From Escherichia phage vB_EcoM_LMP25: a DNA stretch of 64,000 nucleotides. The position numbers were made by a program, and so were the translations under genes. How positions within the stretch are numbered: the stretch's first letter is position 1; the number at the start of each line of letters is the position of its first letter. This document shows positions 17,369 to 25,861 of the stretch, in pieces. The notes beneath the pieces were generated by a model, which was not told the origin of the DNA, made no database searches, and saw only the letters and a program-made list of their open reading frames with translations. The DNA lies in sequence record MK482688.1. One strand, 5' to 3'.

Positions 17369-17545
17369 TTACTTATTAAACATTTTACCAGAACCACCAC
17401 ACATAGGGCAACAACCTGCTCTTGTATACCCTTCTCCGTTACAGTAGTCACACTTCTTGTGTTCTGCAAAGTACTTACAAAGAAGATAAACAAGAACTGC
17501 TACACTACCGAGTGACAGTAAAATTTCTATCCAATATGCTTGCAT
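17369..17545 (-). CDS. small membrane protein with DnaJ-type CxxCxGxG zinc-finger motifs
   Basis: 58 aa not in ORF track: TM helix then CDYCNGEG and CPMCGGSG; GAGGTG 5 nt before ATG. Confidence 0.4.
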   Translation of the reverse strand: MQAYWIEILLSLGSVAVLVYLLCKYFAEHKKCDYCNGEGYTRAGCCPMCGGSGKMFNK

Positions 17546-17862
17546 GACTCACCTCTCATATTCTTGTAAAGGATAAAGCTTCTGTCATGGACGATACTTG
17601 TAGATACTGCAAAGTTACTTTCAAGCATCTGTTTATTTGGATTGTAGAAGCTTTCTTTAAACTCGTCAAGTGCAAATTGGTGATTGTCTGGAAGACCTTT
17701 TACACAGACCTTTATTGTGATTGCTGCTGCAATCTTACCAGTCAGTTCTTCTTTAGCTGCTACTAAAATTTTGTTAAGGAACTTATGACCATTTTCAGGT
17801 TTCTTGATGTTCTCCCAACGTTCCTCTAAGACGATGTTGATGTTCATCTCTTTGATTTTCAT
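17527..17862 (-). CDS. hypothetical protein
   Basis: 111 aa ORF. Confidence 0.45.
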   Translation of the reverse strand: MKIKEMNINIVLEERWENIKKPENGHKFLNKILVAAKEELTGKIAAAITIKVCVKGLPDNHQFALDEFKESFYNPNKQMLESNFAVSTSIVHDRSFILYKNMRGESCKHIG

Positions 17863-17883
17863 AATCTTCTCCAGAAATTAAAA

Positions 17884-17901
17884 AGGCTCCCGTAGGAGCC
17901 T
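17884..17901 (-). terminator. rho-independent terminator
   Basis: On - strand AGGCTCC-UACG-GGAGCCT followed by TTTTTAATTT. Confidence 0.55.
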
Positions 17902-17915
17902 CTTATCATATACTT

Positions 17916-19697
17916 TTAAAGCTGCTTGTCAATATTATTTCGAATATCACCAAGAGTTGTGTAGCCGAACTGCTCAGAGTCACTAAAGACTAGACGTAAA
18001 GCACAAGCTGGATGTTCAAGTGCATCTGCAAAGCTCTGGAACCCATAGCCATCTACAGCTTTCAGATTTTCACCATCCCACATAGGTGCTACACCACCAA
18101 AAGCAGACTTCTTAACACCACTATCTGTTTTAGGGTCTTTTGCAAGCATAATCTCTTTACCACCAATGCTTGCAAGGGTTGCTTTGACAGCAAATGCAAA
18201 GGTGTCACGAGTCATGTACTGGTAAGTGTAAGAGCCTACGCCAAACACTACGTTAGAGCTTGCAAAACCCATTTCATACAGGCGCTTCAGGATTTCGTTT
18301 GCACGTTCCAACGTGATAGAGTCGCCATAGATAAGGCCAATGTGCTCATCCAGTACCTTAAAACCTTTAGAGTTGATAGTTCCTCCAAAGATGTTATACA
18401 AGGTCTTAATAGCTCCATCAATCTCTGCTACAGGGCGTGTTACAACGTTTGCAGAGCCAACCATATAAGCGTTCTTCAACATCACTGTGTCAGCAACTTC
18501 AAAGTCTTCTCTATCAACAACCATTTCGTAGCCTTCTGACAGTAGCCATCCAGCAATACCATAGTTGATGTTTTCAAGCTTCATGTTAAGAACAGCATTC
18601 AACATTGTGTCACTGGCTTCCAGCTTGCTTAGGTGCTCGTAATAAGCCTTCTTAGCACATTCTAAGTGGATTGCTTTATAACCTGTGACAATATGTACAG
18701 GGTCTCCAGAGTCAGGACGAATTACCAGTTTGCCATCACGTTCCATAATTTCTTTACGGAGTGCTGGTAAAATTTCTGACACAGTTCTCCAGAAGTTATA
18801 AGTGTCTGAAACAATGCTTGCAATACCTGTTGGGTAAGTTTCTGTTAAGAAACGACGGAAGGTTTGTAACTCACCTTTAAAGCGTCTTTCTTCTTCAATC
18901 AACTCATTACCACCTTCCCAAGCAATGTTTGCACACATTACAGAGTGCTCAGTGGCTGGTACAGAACTACCAATATCAGAGATTGGGTAGGACTGTCCAT
19001 AGATTCGTTTAGCCGTGTATACAGCAGGGAAGCTATCAGTCCCTTTAAAGCTGGTTAAGTGACCTACAGCGTTAAATGCGTCATCAGTAAAGCCGGACAT
19101 ACCACGCATAGCAAAATCATGGCACTGATAAGGTAAATGTAAGTCATTGTCACAAGTAAGGTCAGCCCACTTCTTACAGATGCGTTTGTAATGCAATGCA
19201 ATAGTTGCAATGGTGCAAGCCTTCCAAATTTCAGCAGAGAAAGCATCTTCCAGATAACCTGCTACCCAATGAAAACCTGAAACAGTGTTCTGAAAGACAA
19301 TCATCGGGACACGCATTGGAACAACTGTGCCTTCTTCTACAGCGTATACTTCAACTGGTAGATAACCTAAGTCGTGAAGTGCTTCCCAATGCTCTCGACC
19401 GATAGCATCTTTACCCAGAACACCATTCATGACTTCTAAGATTTCATCAATGGCTTCTTTTTTATCACGTTCAAAGAAAGTGGCATTCCAGTGGTCTATC
19501 AAGTAATCTTTAACAAAACGTTGAATACCAAAAGCCACTACACCGTCAATTGCTAAGGGGCTGTTAAACCATTTGTCGCTACGTGGTGTCAGATTGAACA
19601 TCAAGTACTCTGTTGCGCTAGGATACTGGTAAACATGACCAGATTTGTAAGCATCTGCATTTAAACCTGCTGGTACTGCATAAAGTGATTTAGTCAT
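17916..19697 (-). CDS. nicotinamide phosphoribosyltransferase family protein (NAMPT/NadV-like; possibly Namat-like)
   Basis: DAYKSGHVYQYP, HDFAMRGMSGF..SFKGTD, VPATEHSVM, IRPDSGDPV, IYGDSI motifs match NAMPT family (from memory); ATG and SD verified. Confidence 0.8.
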   Translation of the reverse strand: MTKSLYAVPAGLNADAYKSGHVYQYPSATEYLMFNLTPRSDKWFNSPLAIDGVVAFGIQRFVKDYLIDHWNATFFERDKKEAIDEILEVMNGVLGKDAIGREHWEALHDLGYLPVEVYAVEEGTVVPMRVPMIVFQNTVSGFHWVAGYLEDAFSAEIWKACTIATIALHYKRICKKWADLTCDNDLHLPYQCHDFAMRGMSGFTDDAFNAVGHLTSFKGTDSFPAVYTAKRIYGQSYPISDIGSSVPATEHSVMCANIAWEGGNELIEEERRFKGELQTFRRFLTETYPTGIASIVSDTYNFWRTVSEILPALRKEIMERDGKLVIRPDSGDPVHIVTGYKAIHLECAKKAYYEHLSKLEASDTMLNAVLNMKLENINYGIAGWLLSEGYEMVVDREDFEVADTVMLKNAYMVGSANVVTRPVAEIDGAIKTLYNIFGGTINSKGFKVLDEHIGLIYGDSITLERANEILKRLYEMGFASSNVVFGVGSYTYQYMTRDTFAFAVKATLASIGGKEIMLAKDPKTDSGVKKSAFGGVAPMWDGENLKAVDGYGFQSFADALEHPACALRLVFSDSEQFGYTTLGDIRNNIDKQL

Positions 19698-19716
19698 CTT
19701 TTAATCTCTCTCAAAA

Positions 19717-19734
19717 TGGGGCTTGGAAGCCCCT
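19717..19734 (-). other. intergenic stem-loop between Prs-like and NAMPT-like genes
   Basis: GGGGCTT..AAGCCCC hairpin, short U-run only. Confidence 0.35.
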
Positions 19735-19742
19735 ATAAAGTT

Positions 19743-20624
19743 TTAATCAAGGTTTGCTACAGTAACTTGGCTATAATGTGTTAAGCCACGGTCTTTAGCT
19801 TCCCCTAAAGAGTTTGTAGTGTAGATATGGTCAATACCATTGTCAAGCAAGTTTTCAACATCTTTAGAGAAAATACCATGAGTTACATAGAGTTCCACAC
19901 GTTTTGCACCTGCTTCACGAAGATGTTTGGCTGCTTCTATGAAGGTTCGACCTCCATCACAAATATCATCCAGAATCATGACAGTTTTATCTGTCAAATC
20001 AACATCGTCAAGGATTCGCATACCAGTAATTTCACCAGTCTTAAGGTTACGCACCTTAGACATTGTGATGTATGGTTTATCCACCTCTTTAGCAGTCTCT
20101 GCAATCTTCTTAGCAGCACCTGCATCTGGGGCTACTAAGTAATCAATCAGTGGGTCATTTGCGTAGTGAACTGCAATCTCCTTTTGAGGAATACTCTGGA
20201 AGCAGTTAAACAGGTTATCTGGAACGTAACTGTGAGGGTCAACTGCACAGACTGCACCAAATCCCATTGCATTTACCTGTTTAGCAAAAACCTTTAAAGC
20301 TGCTGCGTCGCCTTTAAACATGTGACGGTCATAACGTGCATTTGGTAAGTAGTAAAAGATGACAGTCTTTAAAGCATAATCATGAGGAATTAAATCATCA
20401 ATTGCTTCTTTAGCAAGTGCCACAGCAAACAATGTATCCTTATCATAACCTTTTACAATCATAATCACATTGTTGATGGATGATGCTGCATAAGCAGTGA
20501 AATCAACAAACTCTGGCGAAAAGTGCCCACCAATCTCACCAGAAGGAAATTGGATGATGTTAAACTCTTCTTCATGAGTTCCTTTAGTTGGTGAATGAAC
20601 TGTAACACGGATAGATGTTTTCAT
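19743..20624 (-). CDS. ribose-phosphate pyrophosphokinase (PRPP synthetase) family protein (possibly ADPR-PP synthetase-like)
   Basis: VMILDDICDGGRT PRPP-binding loop and Prs-like N-half; ATG at 20624 (track start 20639 is TTG). Confidence 0.7.
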   Translation of the reverse strand: MKTSIRVTVHSPTKGTHEEEFNIIQFPSGEIGGHFSPEFVDFTAYAASSINNVIMIVKGYDKDTLFAVALAKEAIDDLIPHDYALKTVIFYYLPNARYDRHMFKGDAAALKVFAKQVNAMGFGAVCAVDPHSYVPDNLFNCFQSIPQKEIAVHYANDPLIDYLVAPDAGAAKKIAETAKEVDKPYITMSKVRNLKTGEITGMRILDDVDLTDKTVMILDDICDGGRTFIEAAKHLREAGAKRVELYVTHGIFSKDVENLLDNGIDHIYTTNSLGEAKDRGLTHYSQVTVANLD

Positions 20625-20635
20625 AGTTTTCTCTC

Positions 20636-20914
20636 TCAATCAAAAGTTACGTTTGTTACTGCCATTGCAGATTTGCATTTTGCAGGGTCTACAACGTGAT
20701 AAAGTACACTACAGTTACCTGTGCTGTCTGGTACAGGTTTAACCCATTGTTGCTTGACAGTTGGTTCGCCTAAGTCTTTGTAAGAACCATCTGTAAAGTT
20801 GTTTACCATCTCAAGTGCAATTGGCTCTGGAACATGACCACGTATCATGTACATTTCACAACCATTACCTCCTTCACTGACTAATGGTAAAATCTCCCAC
20901 TTTTCTTTAGCCAT
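20636..20914 (-). CDS. hypothetical protein
   Basis: 92 aa ORF. Confidence 0.45.
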   Translation of the reverse strand: MAKEKWEILPLVSEGGNGCEMYMIRGHVPEPIALEMVNNFTDGSYKDLGEPTVKQQWVKPVPDSTGNCSVLYHVVDPAKCKSAMAVTNVTFD

Positions 20915-21422
20915 TATAAGTTGCCCTATAAACTGTCTCGAACTTCAACAGGAGAGATATTGCCAAATCTGTATAGTTGTTGTCAAGCACATCTGGCATA
21001 TTATTTTTGATATATTTCTCTTGCTCTTCATAGGTCATCTTGGGGATACTTAGGAGGCTATCTCCTTGCTTCTGGTTATCAGTTTTAGTTTGGATAAACC
21101 AGTTTGCACAGTGGTGTTCACCACCTTTTGTAACAGGTTTGTGATGACCTAATGTAAATGTTTGCTTACCCGTATACCTGCAAAGATTGTTCAGTGTTGC
21201 AATGGTGTTCTTCACAACACACCATTCATACAGGTTATCTATTGTGTAGTGTGGGTAATAACGGACAAGTGCTCTTTCACGGAAGTTATCACGATTCCAA
21301 AGAACCATGTGATTAGAATTTGAAGGGTCATATTTGTGGGAGTCTATAAACTCTTGACGCTCATCAAAGCTGAGTCTTAGAACTGACATTGCAGCAGAAC
21401 GTTTTAGGTTTGACAGATACAT
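20907..21422 (-). CDS. hypothetical protein
   Basis: 171 aa ORF. Confidence 0.5.
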   Translation of the reverse strand: MYLSNLKRSAAMSVLRLSFDERQEFIDSHKYDPSNSNHMVLWNRDNFRERALVRYYPHYTIDNLYEWCVVKNTIATLNNLCRYTGKQTFTLGHHKPVTKGGEHHCANWFIQTKTDNQKQGDSLLSIPKMTYEEQEKYIKNNMPDVLDNNYTDLAISLLLKFETVYRATYNG

Positions 21423-21472
21423 ATCATCTCCAAAATAAAAGGGAACCTTTACAGTTCCCTTATAGTATCTGT

Positions 21473-21793
21473 TTACTGAGCTACTTTCAAGATGCTTGTG
21501 AATGAAATCTCACTCTCATCCATAAACTCTTTTGCTTCCCCAGTAACTTTTACAAAGTTATCTAGGCAGATAATCTTCTTATCTTTCTTGCTGTAGGTTA
21601 GCTTAACCTTTTCAATATCTTTCTTAGAGCTTTTCTCTTCATTAAAGAGTTTTACAGCTTCTTTGAATGGTAGGTATGAGCCATCATCATCGCTAATAAA
21701 ACCTGTACCACAATAGTAGAAGTTATATTCTTTAGCCATAAACTGGCACAGTACGAAAATCTGTAATTTACGAGTGTTATAAACTTTGCTCAT
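21473..21793 (-). CDS. hypothetical protein
   Basis: 106 aa ORF. Confidence 0.45.
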   Translation of the reverse strand: MSKVYNTRKLQIFVLCQFMAKEYNFYYCGTGFISDDDGSYLPFKEAVKLFNEEKSSKKDIEKVKLTYSKKDKKIICLDNFVKVTGEAKEFMDESEISFTSILKVAQ

Positions 21794-21795
21794 GA

Positions 21796-22053
21796 TTATT
21801 TAGCCTTCTTATTACGTTTACGGTTACGAGCTTTCTTAGCTGCTCGTTTAATAGCTGCTGCACCAGACGGACGGTGGGCTTGTTTCTTACCACCTTTGCC
21901 ACGGCCTACATAGATACTTTTCATAATCTCATTAGCCAGCTTCTCATCCATCTTAAAGTTCTGCATAAGATGAGTCACATCAACACCAGTGAGCATACCT
22001 AATGAAGCTAGTGCTGCTTTTACTTTTGATTTAAAACTATTCCAGAGTCCCAT
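21796..22053 (-). CDS. hypothetical small basic protein
   Basis: 85 aa, Lys/Arg-rich C-terminus. Confidence 0.45.
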   Translation of the reverse strand: MGLWNSFKSKVKAALASLGMLTGVDVTHLMQNFKMDEKLANEIMKSIYVGRGKGGKKQAHRPSGAAAIKRAAKKARNRKRNKKAK

Positions 22054-23716: not shown

Positions 23717-25861
23717 TTACATAGAAACTCTGTCACGAATCTCAGCGATTTTTGCATCGTTCATTCGGGATTCACCTTTAATCTTAGTCCATCCAAGATA
23801 CCCACACACCCTGTTAATCACAGAGATATCATGTGAGTGACAAACTTCACATTCTTCAACATCAGCCTTTGGCCTGTTACCACAATGTTCACAGATTGCT
23901 AAGTCAAAGTTAAGTCCCTGATAGAAACCTTTCAACATTCCTCTTGTAATACAGCTCTTAAGTGCTGATAAGTTTTCTGGGTTAGCTACTCTTACATACT
24001 GGATTCTACCGCCTCTACAGATATGGAAGAAGGGTTCTTCTAAGTCCTGCTTCTCAAATGGTGAGATGTTTGCTGCAACATTCATATGGAAACTGTTTGT
24101 AAAGTATTCCTTGTCAGAAACGCCTTTGATAACACCAAACATATCTCTGAACTGTTTTAGCTGAGTTCCACACAATGACTCTGCTGGAGTACCATATACT
24201 GCATACAAGAAGCCATCTTCATTTTTAAACTCTTCAGTTTTCATGTTGATGTACGCCAGAACATCGTATGCAAAACTATAGCTTCCAACTTCATGAAGTC
24301 GTTTACCCTCAGCAAGAACAGATAGCTCATCAAGAGCAGTAACCCCAAAAGAAGCTGTGAAGGACTTCACGATATCCCAACCAACCTTGTCAGTAGGTTT
24401 CTTAGTCCCTTTGTACAGACCACCTTGTGTGAATGCAAGAGGGTTAGAACTTGCTGGCATATTAGCAATCATTTCGTAGCGTTTCTTGTGGAAGCTGCGA
24501 ATCATCTCTAGGTACTTATCAAGCTCTTTCCAGAAATCTAAACCACTCTCTTTAGAATACTGGTAAATCATTGGTAAGTTCAAAGATACAGCACCAATGT
24601 TAGCACGACCAACGTAGAACTCTTCCCCATTCTCGTTAAGATACGGAGATAAGAAGGCTCTGCAACCCATCGGTGAAATTACCTTACCAGAACGCTCAAA
24701 AGCCTCTGCTACAGCACCATGACCAGATACACTTAAGAAATCTGGATACATTGCTTTAGAGCAACACTCAATAGCTTTACTGTACAGGTGACCTTGACAG
24801 ATATTCTCATTGTGTCTCTTCTGGTCATAAATATAAACCAGTTTAGGGAATACAACAGGTTTCTTGCTCTTACCTTGACCATTCATACGAACATCTAGGA
24901 GAGTACTTGCAATCATATATTGCAGTCGGTTATCTTCATTGGACATATCTGAGTCAAGTAACCCGAATGTCAAAGTTGTGAATGCAAAATCACCACGGCT
25001 ACAAGGCACGGTATTTAGTTTCATCTCAAGTGACTGAAAACCTTGAGTCAGTTCAATTTGTAACTGCTCCATTACATAATTGTGGTAATGCTCTTTAGGA
25101 ATACCATAAGATGATGCTTTCTCAGCATGATAGCGTAGAGACTTCTTAGCATACGGTACAAGTACCTTATCAATCTCTGCTAAAGTAAAACCACCAAATT
25201 GCTGTGCAGTTGCTGAAAGTACTACGTCACCAATAACCTGCAACGCTGACAGTACAGATTTAGGTTCACAGTACTCAATGCCGGACATTTCAAAGCCACC
25301 TTTTAGTACTTTACCAATGTCAAACAGGCAACAGTTAATACCACCAAAAATCAGGTCTCTTAAATCATGGATATAGATAAAGCCTTTCTCAATGGCTTCA
25401 AGTTCCTCTGGTGTTAGATGATACTGTTTAAAGATTTCTTTAGTCAGGTAACCACGGATAATTGAACCTTTCGTAGAAATTAAACTGCTGTCAAAGTTAG
25501 CATTTTCACGGTCACCTAAGAAGAGTGTATCTTTAGTCTTCTGGTAGAGTTCATCCCAATTTTGAGCAACCTCTTTACGGTAATTTCTATATGTTGAGTA
25601 AGACTCATAAATCTCGTGATTGACTTCTGCCAAAGCACCCTCAACAATACTGTGAATATCATTTACCGAAATTAGCAAATTATTCTGCTTAGTGGACTTT
25701 ACCAGAATCCTCATAAATGCTGACTCAAGAGCTTGAGTAACATCTGGTGGAAGCTCTTTATAACCAACTCTGTTAGCTGACTTTGTGACTGCTGCTAAAA
25801 CTTTTTTGATATCAGGTTCTTCAAGTGAGCCATTCTTTTTAATAATCTGTACTTTGTTCAT
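23717..25861 (-). CDS. nrdD: anaerobic ribonucleoside-triphosphate reductase
   Basis: 714 aa; C-terminal Cys cluster CEHCG..CEVCH and glycyl-radical motif RVCGYLG. Confidence 0.85.
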   Translation of the reverse strand: MNKVQIIKKNGSLEEPDIKKVLAAVTKSANRVGYKELPPDVTQALESAFMRILVKSTKQNNLLISVNDIHSIVEGALAEVNHEIYESYSTYRNYRKEVAQNWDELYQKTKDTLFLGDRENANFDSSLISTKGSIIRGYLTKEIFKQYHLTPEELEAIEKGFIYIHDLRDLIFGGINCCLFDIGKVLKGGFEMSGIEYCEPKSVLSALQVIGDVVLSATAQQFGGFTLAEIDKVLVPYAKKSLRYHAEKASSYGIPKEHYHNYVMEQLQIELTQGFQSLEMKLNTVPCSRGDFAFTTLTFGLLDSDMSNEDNRLQYMIASTLLDVRMNGQGKSKKPVVFPKLVYIYDQKRHNENICQGHLYSKAIECCSKAMYPDFLSVSGHGAVAEAFERSGKVISPMGCRAFLSPYLNENGEEFYVGRANIGAVSLNLPMIYQYSKESGLDFWKELDKYLEMIRSFHKKRYEMIANMPASSNPLAFTQGGLYKGTKKPTDKVGWDIVKSFTASFGVTALDELSVLAEGKRLHEVGSYSFAYDVLAYINMKTEEFKNEDGFLYAVYGTPAESLCGTQLKQFRDMFGVIKGVSDKEYFTNSFHMNVAANISPFEKQDLEEPFFHICRGGRIQYVRVANPENLSALKSCITRGMLKGFYQGLNFDLAICEHCGNRPKADVEECEVCHSHDISVINRVCGYLGWTKIKGESRMNDAKIAEIRDRVSM

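What the first reader, a model, noticed from the sequence alone, without database searches (positions are those of the whole stretch)
17916..20624. Phage two-gene NAMPT-like + PRPP-synthetase-like cassette: candidate NAD+ reconstitution counter-defence
A phage has no need for generic NAD salvage, yet it carries adjacent, co-oriented genes for a NAMPT-family enzyme and a Prs-family enzyme with an intact PRPP-binding loop. Host defences such as Thoeris, DSR, some CBASS effectors and SIR2/TIR systems abort infection by destroying NAD+. A Prs-like enzyme making an activated ribose donor coupled to a NAMPT-like transferase could rebuild NAD+ from the breakdown products. Whether the NAMPT-like enzyme uses PRPP or an ADPR-derived pyrophosphate cannot be told from sequence.
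Basis: partly seen in the sequence, partly recalled or inferred. Interest (0 to 1): 0.85.

Follow-up and report, generated by a model that had tools for sequence, protein, structure and literature searches.

The report
Known phage NAD+-rebuilding operon (NARP1)
These two neighbouring phage genes are the already published NARP1 pathway (Adps plus Namat), which rebuilds NAD+ from ADP-ribose and nicotinamide so that the phage escapes bacterial defences that destroy NAD+; this phage's own two proteins are listed in the 2024 discovery paper, so the finding is correct but not new.

Summary
Two co-oriented minus-strand genes sit at exactly the stated coordinates: a 293-aa Prs-like gene (19743-20624) and a 593-aa NAMPT-like gene (17916-19697). 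The window is Escherichia phage vB_EcoM_LMP33, a Felixounavirus, with 2 mismatches in 64,000 bases.

The pair is orthologous and syntenic to genes 79-80 of phage Bas63. Protein identity is 78% for the first gene and 99% for the second. Bas63 genes 79-80 are the operon in which NARP1 was discovered (Osterman et al., bioRxiv 10.1101/2024.02.11.579819). In NARP1, Adps pyrophosphorylates ADP-ribose to ADPR-PP, and Namat joins ADPR-PP to nicotinamide to give NAD+. That paper's supplementary tables list the LMP33 and LMP34 proteins with these sequences.

The window Namat carries the published ADPR-PP "selectivity clamp" signature, GSYTYQYMTRD plus K42-W43, and all catalytic residues. Its model matches the SPbetaL1 Namat crystal structure better than any true NAMPT. 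The window Adps keeps the catalytic lysine (K190).

No Macro-domain phosphatase and no RyR-domain gene flanks the pair, so it is the core two-gene form.

Two side observations were not found described in the papers read: a folded insertion of about 85 aa in Namat that is specific to Ounavirinae, and a mosaic, divergent N-terminal half of Adps.

The parts
19743..20624 (-). adps: ADP-ribose pyrophosphokinase (ADPR-PP synthetase), Prs family, 293 aa. It is annotated in GenBank as 'ribose-phosphate pyrophosphokinase'.
   Evidence: ORF. PF00156, PF14572 and phrog_619. It is 78% identical over its full length to Bas63_0079 and 36% identical over 191 aa to the biochemically characterised SPbetaL1 Adps. 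It is 22-26% identical to E. coli Prs. K190 aligns with the SPbetaL1 catalytic K162. The sequence is listed as MK482689_00063 / MK482690_00126 in the Adps table of the discovery paper, with Namat association 'Yes'.
17916..19697 (-). namat: nicotinamide ADP-ribose transferase, NAMPT family, 593 aa. It is annotated in GenBank as 'nicotinamide phosphoribosyltransferase'.
   Evidence: ORF. PF04095, PF18127 and phrog_448. It is 99% identical to Bas63_0080. The best PDB sequence match is SPbetaL1 Namat 9W5W/9W5X at 4.6e-128, against 7.6e-52 for Xcc Nampt and about 1e-40 for human NAMPT. The AF2 model has pLDDT 93.5 and best matches 9w5x with TMt 0.95. Catalytic and clamp residues are mapped. It is listed as 'Adps-associated' in the Namat table.
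18205..18237 (-). Codons for the SCH 'selectivity clamp helix' motif G488-S-Y-T-Y-Q-Y-M-T-R-D498 of Namat.
   Evidence: [quoted passage not shown] True Nampts differ: Xcc has GGALLQKVDRD and H. ducreyi NadV has GAQTYQRNTRD.
18417..18680 (-). Lineage-specific insertion in Namat (about aa 340-427), a small alpha/beta subdomain absent from SPbetaL1 Namat and from NAMPTs.
19718..19733 (-). Conserved GC-rich hairpin (GGGGCU-UCCA-AGCCCC, followed by AUUUUG) in the adps-namat spacer.
   Evidence: Sequence. Fold is -12.6 kcal/mol, z -2.1. In Bas63 the stem is identical and the loop differs. Its function was not tested. It does not meet the terminator scan's T-run criterion.
20631..20637 (-). GAGAGAG Shine-Dalgarno-like sequence 6 nt upstream of the adps ATG. 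The same GAGAGAG motif precedes namat at 19706-19712, 8 nt before its ATG.
   Evidence: Read directly from the sequence. It supports the ATG at 20624 rather than the TTG at 20639 as the start. GenBank and Bas63 use the same start.
17881..17904 (-). Intrinsic-terminator-like hairpin immediately after the namat stop codon, likely the 3' end of the transcription unit.
   Evidence: Terminator scan. Fold is -16.6 kcal/mol, z -3.7, and 0 of 200 shuffles fold as well. An annotated terminator sits at the same place after nadV in Erwinia phage phiEa21-4.
20636..21422 (-). Context only: two overlapping upstream ORFs of unknown function (171 aa at 20907..21422 and 92 aa at 20636..20914). They lie between an upstream terminator-like hairpin (21439..21461) and adps, so they may be co-transcribed with it.
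   Evidence: ORFs. They match phrog_3500 and phrog_4726, with no Pfam family even at E<=10 apart from noise. Nothing shows that they belong to the pathway. The 171-aa homolog in phage muut is not next to NARP1 genes.

Best explanation
The cassette is a core two-gene NARP1 (NAD+ reconstitution pathway 1) operon of a Felixounavirus. When a host defence (SIR2-HerA/Nezha, type I Thoeris, DSR1/2, SEFIR, SIR2-pAgo and others) cleaves NAD+ into ADP-ribose and nicotinamide, two steps follow. [quoted passage not shown] Second, Namat (17916-19697), a NAMPT-family transferase whose entrance 'selectivity clamp' stacks on the adenine of the substrate, displaces the pyrophosphate with nicotinamide and regenerates NAD+ directly, without an NMN intermediate. 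This keeps NAD+ available for phage replication.

Shown here by computation: identity and orthology of the genes, conservation of the catalytic and clamp residues, the structural match, and the absence of known accessory genes.

Shown by others in close relatives: the Bas63 deletion phenotype and ADPR-PP accumulation in infected cells, and the enzymology and crystal structures of the SPbetaL1 enzymes.

Inferred: that the LMP33 enzymes do the same.
For: 1. The window is LMP33 (2 mismatches in 64 kb), and the 4-kb region is 100% identical to LMP33 and LMP34.

2. The supplementary tables of the discovery paper list MK482689_00063 / MK482690_00126 as Adps homologs with Namat association 'Yes'. They list MK482689_00064 / MK482690_00127 as 'Adps-associated' Namat homologs. 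The printed parts of those table sequences (the whole Adps, the start of the truncated Namat entries) match the window proteins.

3. The pair is orthologous to Bas63 genes 79-80. Lengths are the same (293 and 593 aa). Synteny is the same: nrdG, genes 77-78-79-80, then rIIA and rIIB. Identity is 78% and 99%. Deleting 79-80 made Bas63 about 20-fold more sensitive to SIR2-HerA and worsened NAD+ depletion. The rescue did not need host pncC or nadR, and ADPR-PP appeared only with the operon present.

4. Every SPbetaL1 NAD+-contact residue is conserved or conservatively replaced in the window Namat: D15, Y17, F195, R198, D221, A248, H251, R327, D329, G458, D459, G488, S489, Y490, Y494, T496, R497, D498. 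The SCH motif GSYTYQYMTRD fits the Namat-specific consensus. The SCL has K42-W43, the 'Lys then stacking residue' arrangement described for Bas63.

5. The closest solved structure by sequence and by fold is Namat (9W5W/9W5X), ahead of H. ducreyi NadV, Xcc Nampt and human NAMPT.

6. In Adps, the catalytic K190 corresponds to SPbetaL1 K162 and B. subtilis Prs K197. Also invariant across 21 family members are R192, H131, R97/D99/R100, D219/D220 and G225/T227. There is no significant PF13793 N-domain match, whereas E. coli Prs scores 179 bits.

7. The SPbetaL1 homologs were shown in vitro to use ADPR rather than ribose-5-phosphate, and to prefer ADPR-PP over PRPP.
Against: No experiment was done on the LMP33 proteins themselves. 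The Bas63 Adps could not be purified, so the enzymology comes from SPbetaL1 homologs that are only 36% (Adps) and about 43% (Namat) identical.

The N-terminal 170 residues of the window Adps are only 68% identical to Bas63 Adps, so that half is a different allele from the one tested in vivo.

The sequence determinants that make Adps prefer ADPR over ribose-5-phosphate are not known. No Adps structure was found in the PDB copy or in the literature searches. The substrate assignment for the first enzyme therefore rests on orthology.

Namat retains PRPP-to-NMN activity in vitro at about half the level of human Nampt, so a secondary salvage role is not excluded.
Confidence: 0.93

Rival explanations
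1. Canonical salvage: the first enzyme is a true PRPP synthetase and the second a true NAMPT/NadV. Together they make NMN from ribose-5-phosphate and nicotinamide, and host NadR or PncC converts NMN to NAD+. This is how databases annotate the genes.
For: Pfam, PHROG, NCBIfam and GenBank names all say Prs and NAMPT/NAPRT. The Prs catalytic core is conserved. Namat keeps some PRPP-to-NMN activity in vitro.
Against: [quoted passage not shown] SPbetaL1 Adps gave no product in the canonical-Prs control but used ADPR; the figure legend gives the control substrate as ribose-5-phosphate, the body text says PRPP. The window Namat has the adenine clamp that true Nampts lack. The window Adps fails all equivalog-level Prs models, for example 91 bits against a cutoff of 297, and is only 22-26% identical to host Prs.
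Confidence: 0.03
2. NARP2-type pathway or general NAD+ overproduction: the phage raises NAD+ from PRPP regardless of defence, as KVP40 NadV + NatV do.
For: NAMPT-family genes are also part of NARP2.
Against: NARP2 needs an Nmnat (NatV) partner. The discovery paper classifies this phage's Namat as 'Adps-associated', not Nmnat-associated. No NMNAT or Nudix gene is annotated in the 64 kb of LMP33 that forms the window, and none of the genes tested beside the pair is one. The partner gene here is Prs-like and adjacent, which defines NARP1.
Confidence: 0.01
3. The enzymes have the same chemistry (ADPR + nicotinamide -> NAD+), but the main selective benefit is not counter-defence. Instead they recycle ADPR produced by other processes in the infected cell, as a housekeeping function. 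This resembles the chromosomal bacterial copies that sit next to the ADPR-sensing regulator NrtR.
For: Chromosomal Adps-like/Namat-like pairs exist in Enterobacteriaceae outside prophages. In Kluyvera intermedia the pair is divergently adjacent to a NUDIX + WHD_NrtR regulator. The discovery paper also raises a housekeeping role for bacterial copies.
Against: In phages the pathway was shown to overcome five defence systems, and its deletion gave a phenotype only on defence-carrying hosts. According to the paper there is little free ADPR without NADase activity.
Confidence: 0.03

Closest known systems
NARP1 of Escherichia phage JohannRWettstein (Bas63), genes bas63_0079-0080 (Osterman et al., bioRxiv 10.1101/2024.02.11.579819; to my knowledge published in Nature 2024)
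   Same: Same genus, gene order, gene lengths and flanking genes. Namat is 99% identical, with an identical clamp and the same insertion. Adps is 78% identical, and its C-terminal catalytic half is 93% identical. The intergenic hairpin stem is the same.
   Different: The N-terminal 170 aa of Adps is a different allele: 68% amino-acid and 57-79% nucleotide identity, against 90-99% in the flanks. Bas63 has one extra small ORF (0081) downstream of namat, and its nrdD is interrupted by a homing endonuclease.
NARP1 of Bacillus phage SPbetaL1 (genes 190-191), the biochemically and structurally characterised pair (PDB 9W5W, 9W5X; PMC12774641)
   Same: Two-gene adps-namat order. The catalytic Lys of Adps, the Namat catalytic core and the SCH clamp motif are shared. 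The fold matches with TMt 0.95.
   Different: Identity is only 36% and about 43%. In SPbetaL1 the genes abut or overlap, whereas here a 45-nt spacer with a hairpin separates them. SPbetaL1 Namat is 491 aa and lacks the insertion of about 85 aa and a second extra segment of about 15 aa (aa 259-273). The SCL uses R40 directly, rather than K42-W43.
Housekeeping Prs (E. coli b1207) and NAMPT/NadV (human NAMPT, Xcc Nampt, H. ducreyi NadV)
   Same: Same protein families, folds and catalytic residues. The chemistry is the same: pyrophosphoryl transfer to C1 of a ribose, then displacement by nicotinamide.
   Different: The substrates carry an extra AMP moiety (ADPR and ADPR-PP). Adps has a diverged N-terminal domain with no PF13793 hit, and the motifs DPHS and DDxCDGGRT in place of DLHA and DDMIDTGGT. 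Namat has the aromatic adenine clamp that Nampts lack.
Extended NARP1 variants: NARP1-AP (with the Macro-domain ADPR-1''-phosphatase Adpp; bioRxiv 10.64898/2026.01.28.702374) and NARP1 loci with RyDEP (RyR-domain cADPR glycosidase; bioRxiv 10.64898/2026.05.28.727677)
   Same: The Adps + Namat core is shared.
   Different: No Macro, RyR (PF02026) or Nudix domain was found in the three ORFs upstream (the fourth was scanned only at E<=10) or the two downstream, even at permissive thresholds. On published logic, this phage's pathway should therefore be blind to aRES-type cleavage (ADPR-1P) and should not consume cADPR signals.
NARP2 (Vibrio phage KVP40 NadV + NatV)
   Same: It is a phage-encoded route to NAD+ that uses a NAMPT-family enzyme and counters NAD+ depletion.
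   Different: NARP2 starts from PRPP, passes through NMN, needs an Nmnat, and raises NAD+ even without a defence system. None of these partners or features is present here.

Membership tests
NARP1 (Adps + Namat) | A Prs-family gene and a NAMPT-family gene lie adjacent and co-oriented in a phage genome. The paper's criterion is a Namat homolog within 10 genes of adps. | tested here: met
   The two ORFs are 45 nt apart on the same strand.
NARP1 (Adps + Namat) | Adps belongs to the phage Adps clade, separate from cellular Prs. | tested here: met
   It is 78% identical over its full length to the reference clade member Bas63 Adps. It is 29-36% identical to SPbetaL1 Adps and 22-26% to E. coli Prs. 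It fails all Prs equivalog cutoffs and has no PF13793 hit. It is listed in the paper's Adps table with Namat association 'Yes'.
NARP1 (Adps + Namat) | The Adps catalytic lysine is present (SPbetaL1 K162 = B. subtilis Prs K197; the K162A mutant is inactive). | tested here: met
   Window K190, in the sequence SKVRN, aligns with SPbetaL1 K162 in HKQRN. It is invariant in the 21-sequence alignment A4.
NARP1 (Adps + Namat) | The Namat catalytic core is present (SPbetaL1 F189, D215, R306, catalytic His). | tested here: met
   The window equivalents are F195, D221, R327 and H251. The other NMN-moiety contacts are also conserved.
NARP1 (Adps + Namat) | [quoted passage not shown] | tested here: met
   The window has G488-SYTYQYM-TRD498, with Y490 and Y494. 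Its SCL is S40-D41-K42-W43, the Lys-then-stacking-residue type described for Bas63. The motif is absent from Xcc Nampt and HdNadV.
NARP1 (Adps + Namat) | Enzymatic activities: ADPR + ATP -> ADPR-PP, and ADPR-PP + nicotinamide -> NAD+. | not testable with these tools
   These were shown for the SPbetaL1 enzymes in vitro, and ADPR-PP was detected in Bas63-infected cells. Here they are inferred from orthology.
NARP1 (Adps + Namat) | A counter-defence phenotype against NAD+-depleting systems. | not testable with these tools
   This was shown for Bas63 delta-79-80 on SIR2-HerA. It has not been done for LMP33.
NARP1-AP (NARP1 with the Adpp phosphatase) | A Macro-domain (Poa1p-like) gene lies within or beside the operon. 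| tested here: not met
   No Macro domain was found in the ORFs at 20636-20914, 20907-21422, 21473-21793, 21796-22053 or 17527-17862 at E<=10, nor in 17369-17545 at E<=0.01. There is no room for a gene between adps and namat.
NARP1 with RyDEP | An RyR R12-domain (PF02026) gene lies in the locus. | tested here: not met
   There was no PF02026 hit in the same flanking ORFs.
NARP2 (Nampt + Nmnat) | An NMN adenylyltransferase partner in the same phage, and a Nampt without the adenine clamp. | tested here: not met
   The clamp is present. The paper classes the protein as Adps-associated. No NMNAT is annotated in the window's 64 kb. About 24 kb of the phage genome lies outside the window and was not inspected by me.
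Canonical Prs (ribose-phosphate diphosphokinase) | Scores above the NCBIfam equivalog cutoffs and has the Pribosyltran_N domain (PF13793). | tested here: not met
   The best equivalog score is 103.7 bits against a cutoff of 296. Only the broad subfamily model TIGR01251 is passed, at 123.5 bits against 113. There is no PF13793 hit, whereas E. coli Prs scores 179.5 bits.

The most novel reading that the evidence does not exclude
The Ounavirinae form of NARP1 may differ functionally from the characterised SPbetaL1 form in two ways that I did not find described in the papers I read.

First, Namat carries an independently folding alpha/beta subdomain of about 85 aa with no detectable structural relative. 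It is inserted about ten residues after the catalytic RPDSGDP strand, and could act in regulation, in hand-over of the labile ADPR-PP from Adps, or in evading a host inhibitor.

Second, the N-terminal domain of Adps circulates as two old alleles (68% amino-acid identity) embedded in flanks that are 90-99% identical. This pattern would fit exchange driven by a host factor that targets or senses Adps.

Neither idea is supported beyond the sequence and structure-prediction pattern.
Probability: 0.12. Interest if true: 0.4.

Novelty: already known. Interest (0 to 1): 0.12.

Why it matters
The biology is important, because a virus rebuilds a metabolite that host immunity destroys. However, it was published in 2024 and has been extended since, with the Namat structure, NARP1-AP and RyDEP.

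The practical value of this case is in annotation. GenBank, PHROGs and an NCBIfam equivalog model still name these genes 'ribose-phosphate pyrophosphokinase' and 'nicotinamide/nicotinate phosphoribosyltransferase'. The clamp motif and orthology show that they should be called Adps and Namat.

For phage-therapy use of Felixounaviruses, the cassette predicts resistance to SIR2-, TIR- and SEFIR-type NAD+ depletion. Because no Adpp phosphatase is present, it also predicts continued sensitivity to aRES-type defence.

Tried and rejected
1. I tested whether the flanking small ORFs are known NARP1 accessories (Macro/Adpp, RyR/RyDEP, Nudix). Pfam gave nothing, even at E<=10.

2. I tested whether the upstream 171-aa and 92-aa ORFs travel with NARP1 outside the subfamily. 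The 92-aa protein is confined to Ounavirinae. The 171-aa homolog in Justusliebigvirus phage muut is not next to any Prs or NAMPT gene. The shared order in Erwinia phage phiEa21-4 is only subfamily synteny. I rejected these ORFs as evidence for a four-gene system.

4. I suspected that the 843-aa homolog P0064 was an Adps-Namat fusion. It is not: it shows no similarity to Adps and is a Namat with a large insertion at the same site.

5. I looked for a solved Adps structure or a paper on Adps substrate determinants. None turned up in the PDB copy or in the literature searches.

6. The tRNA scan of the window found none.

7. The promoter scan is uninformative: 38 sites were found against 31 expected.

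Full report
**What is in the sequence.** Two co-oriented ORFs lie on the minus strand at the stated coordinates.
- The first is 19743..20624. It encodes 293 aa from an ATG preceded by GAGAGAG. A TTG at 20639 is only a mechanical alternative start.
- The second is 17916..19697 and encodes 593 aa.
- A 45-nt spacer separates them.
- The first protein matches the phosphoribosyltransferase and Prs-associated domains (PF00156, PF14572) and phrog_619.
- The second matches PF04095, PF18127 and phrog_448.
- A strong terminator-like hairpin follows the second gene (17881-17904; -16.6 kcal/mol, z -3.7).

**Where the window comes from.**
- The 4-kb region is 100% identical to Escherichia phages vB_EcoM_LMP33 and LMP34.
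- The whole window is the reverse complement of LMP33 (MK482689) 1253..65252, with 2 mismatches in 64,000.
- LMP33 is a Felixounavirus.
- GenBank annotates the two genes as 'ribose-phosphate pyrophosphokinase' and 'nicotinamide phosphoribosyltransferase'.
- They lie between the nrdD/nrdG block and rIIA/rIIB.

**What it is.** A literature search found that this gene pair is the published NAD+ reconstitution pathway 1, NARP1. Osterman et al. (bioRxiv 10.1101/2024.02.11.579819) started from the same two-gene operon in BASEL phage Bas63 (JohannRWettstein, MZ501086, genes 79-80). Their results were as follows.
- Deleting genes 79-80 reduced plating on SIR2-HerA cells about 20-fold and deepened NAD+ depletion.
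- The protection did not need host pncC or nadR.
- A new metabolite, ADPR-pyrophosphate, appeared only when the operon was present.
- With purified homologs from Bacillus phage SPbetaL1, the Prs-like enzyme (Adps) used ADPR rather than ribose-5-phosphate.
- The NAMPT-like enzyme (Namat) joined ADPR-PP to nicotinamide to give NAD+.

The supplementary tables of that paper list the LMP33 and LMP34 proteins by accession. The printed parts of their sequences match the window proteins. They appear as an Adps homolog with Namat association 'Yes' and as an 'Adps-associated' Namat homolog.

**Orthology, tested directly.** I fetched the Bas63 locus.
- It has the same gene lengths, 293 and 593 aa.
- It has the same neighbours: nrdG, small ORFs, genes 77-78-79-80, then rIIA and rIIB.
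- Window Namat is 99% identical to Bas63_0080.
- Window Adps is 78% identical to Bas63_0079.
- Against the SPbetaL1 pair, identities are 36% over 191 aa for Adps and about 43% for Namat.
- Against the host E. coli Prs, the window Adps is only 22-26% identical.

**Active-site and specificity features of Namat.** The 2026 structure paper on SPbetaL1 Namat (PMC12774641; PDB 9W5W, 9W5X) defines the catalytic core and an adenine-binding 'selectivity clamp'. The clamp has two parts. [quoted passage not shown] The other is an SCL loop residue that stacks on adenine.

Mapping these onto the window protein gives:
- D15, Y17, F195, R198, D221, A248, H251, R327, D329, G458, D459;
- the clamp motif G488-S-Y-T-Y-Q-Y-M-T-R-D498;
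- an SCL of K42-W43, the 'Lys followed by the stacking residue' arrangement the paper describes for Bas63.

True Nampts have GGALLQKVDRD (Xcc) or GAQTYQRNTRD (H. ducreyi NadV) at this place.

The structural evidence agrees.
- By sequence, the best solved structure is Namat (E 4.6e-128). Xcc Nampt scores 7.6e-52 and human NAMPT about 1e-40.
- An AlphaFold2 model built on 38 homologs has pLDDT 93.5.
- That model best matches 9W5X/9W5W (TMt 0.95), ahead of HdNadV and human NAMPT.

So PRPP versus ADPR-PP preference can now be read from the sequence.

**Active-site features of Adps.**
- K190 aligns with SPbetaL1 K162, equivalent to B. subtilis Prs K197; the K162A mutant is inactive.
- In a 21-sequence alignment with E. 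coli Prs, the invariant residues are F26, R97/D99/R100, H131, D167, K190, R192, D219/D220 and G225/T227.
- The protein differs from housekeeping Prs in having no detectable PF13793 N-terminal domain. E. coli Prs scores 179.5 bits on that model.
- It fails every equivalog-level Prs model.
- It has DPHS and DDxCDGGRT where Prs has DLHA and DDMIDTGGT.
- No Adps structure was found. The ADPR specificity of this enzyme therefore rests on orthology, not on a residue signature.

**Which variant of NARP1.** Two extensions are published. One is NARP1-AP, which adds a Macro-domain ADPR-1''-phosphatase to counter aRES. The other is NARP1 loci carrying the RyR-domain glycosidase RyDEP. None of the four upstream or two downstream ORFs has a Macro, RyR or Nudix domain, even at permissive thresholds. 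This is the core two-gene form.

**Rival readings.**
- Canonical Prs + NadV salvage is contradicted by the Bas63 delta-pncC delta-nadR result, by ADPR-PP accumulation, by the clamp and by the failed Prs equivalog tests.
- NARP2 is excluded because there is no Nmnat partner and because of the paper's own classification.
- A housekeeping ADPR-recycling role cannot be fully excluded. It fits the chromosomal bacterial copies better than the phage copies.

**Things seen on the way.**
1. DNA identity between the window and Bas63 is 90-99% across 21915-17860. It drops to 57-79% in the 5' 500 nt of adps. The N-terminal 170 aa are 68% identical and the C-terminal 123 aa are 93% identical, and many synonymous differences point to an old, imported allele. 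Both alleles are common.
2. Ounavirinae Namat has an insertion of about 85 aa (aa 340-427) just after the catalytic RPDSGDP strand. It is predicted to fold on its own and has no PDB relative. It occurs in 253 phage records. Other Namat lineages carry different insertions at the same site.
3. A hairpin in the adps-namat spacer has a conserved stem and a variable loop.
4. Enterobacterial chromosomes carry an Adps-like/Namat-like pair next to an NrtR regulator.

**Verdict.** The system is already known, down to this phage's proteins being tabulated in the discovery paper. Interest is low (0.12). The residual novelty lies only in the lineage-specific Namat insertion and the Adps allele mosaic.

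Noticed in passing
window 20116-20615 (5' part of adps), compared with L003 (Bas63): There is a mosaic segment. Nucleotide identity to Bas63 is 57-79% here, against 90-99% in the flanks. Adps aa 1-170 are 68% identical and aa 171-293 are 93% identical, while the adjacent Namat is 99% identical. Two Adps allele groups circulate in related phages: 154 records at >=90% identity and 91 records at 60-80%.
   Followed up: partly
[not shown]
   Followed up: partly
window 19718-19733 (minus strand), in the adps-namat spacer: There is a GC-rich hairpin (GGGGCU/AGCCCC) followed by AUUUUG. The stem is identical in Bas63 and the loop differs (UCCA versus UGAA). It could attenuate or stabilise the transcript and so set the Adps:Namat ratio. 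It does not meet the terminator scan criteria.
   Followed up: partly
window 20636-21461 (minus strand): Two overlapping ORFs of unknown function (171 aa, phrog_3500 with a weak HNH-like match; and 92 aa, phrog_4726) lie between a terminator-like hairpin (21439-21461) and adps. The four genes may therefore form one transcription unit. The same order occurs in Erwinia phage phiEa21-4. The 171-aa homolog in phage muut is not linked to NARP1.
   Followed up: partly
L006 7089-10365 (Kluyvera intermedia chromosome contig DACYQB010000004.1); also L007: A chromosomal Adps-like (286 aa) and Namat-like (496 aa) pair is divergently adjacent to a NUDIX + WHD_NrtR regulator (an ADPR-responsive repressor family). 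It lies among ordinary metabolic genes, not in a prophage. The related Klebsiella, Cronobacter, Phytobacter and Kosakonia Namat-like proteins that were aligned carry the Namat SCH motif (GS[YF]TYQYNTRD).
   Followed up: partly
(database models), concerning window 17916-20624: The profile phrog_12872 (547 positions, named NAMPT) is matched in its first half by Adps and in its second half by Namat. This suggests that fused Adps-Namat proteins or merged gene calls exist in that family. The NCBIfam equivalog NF006629 would name Namat 'nicotinate phosphoribosyltransferase', which is a misnomer given the published biochemistry.
   Followed up: no
window 23717-25861 (nrdD), compared with L001 46630-49516: The anaerobic ribonucleotide reductase gene nrdD is uninterrupted here (714 aa). 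In Bas63 it is split in two by a homing-endonuclease gene.
   Followed up: no
window 17905-17932 (minus strand): A near-consensus sigma-70-like promoter (TTGACA, 16 nt, TATGAT; 11 of 12 matches) overlaps the last codons of namat and sits just before the terminator hairpin. Promoter-like sites overall are not enriched over shuffled sequence (38 found against 31 expected).
   Followed up: no
window 1-64000: No tRNA genes were found in the window.
   Followed up: no
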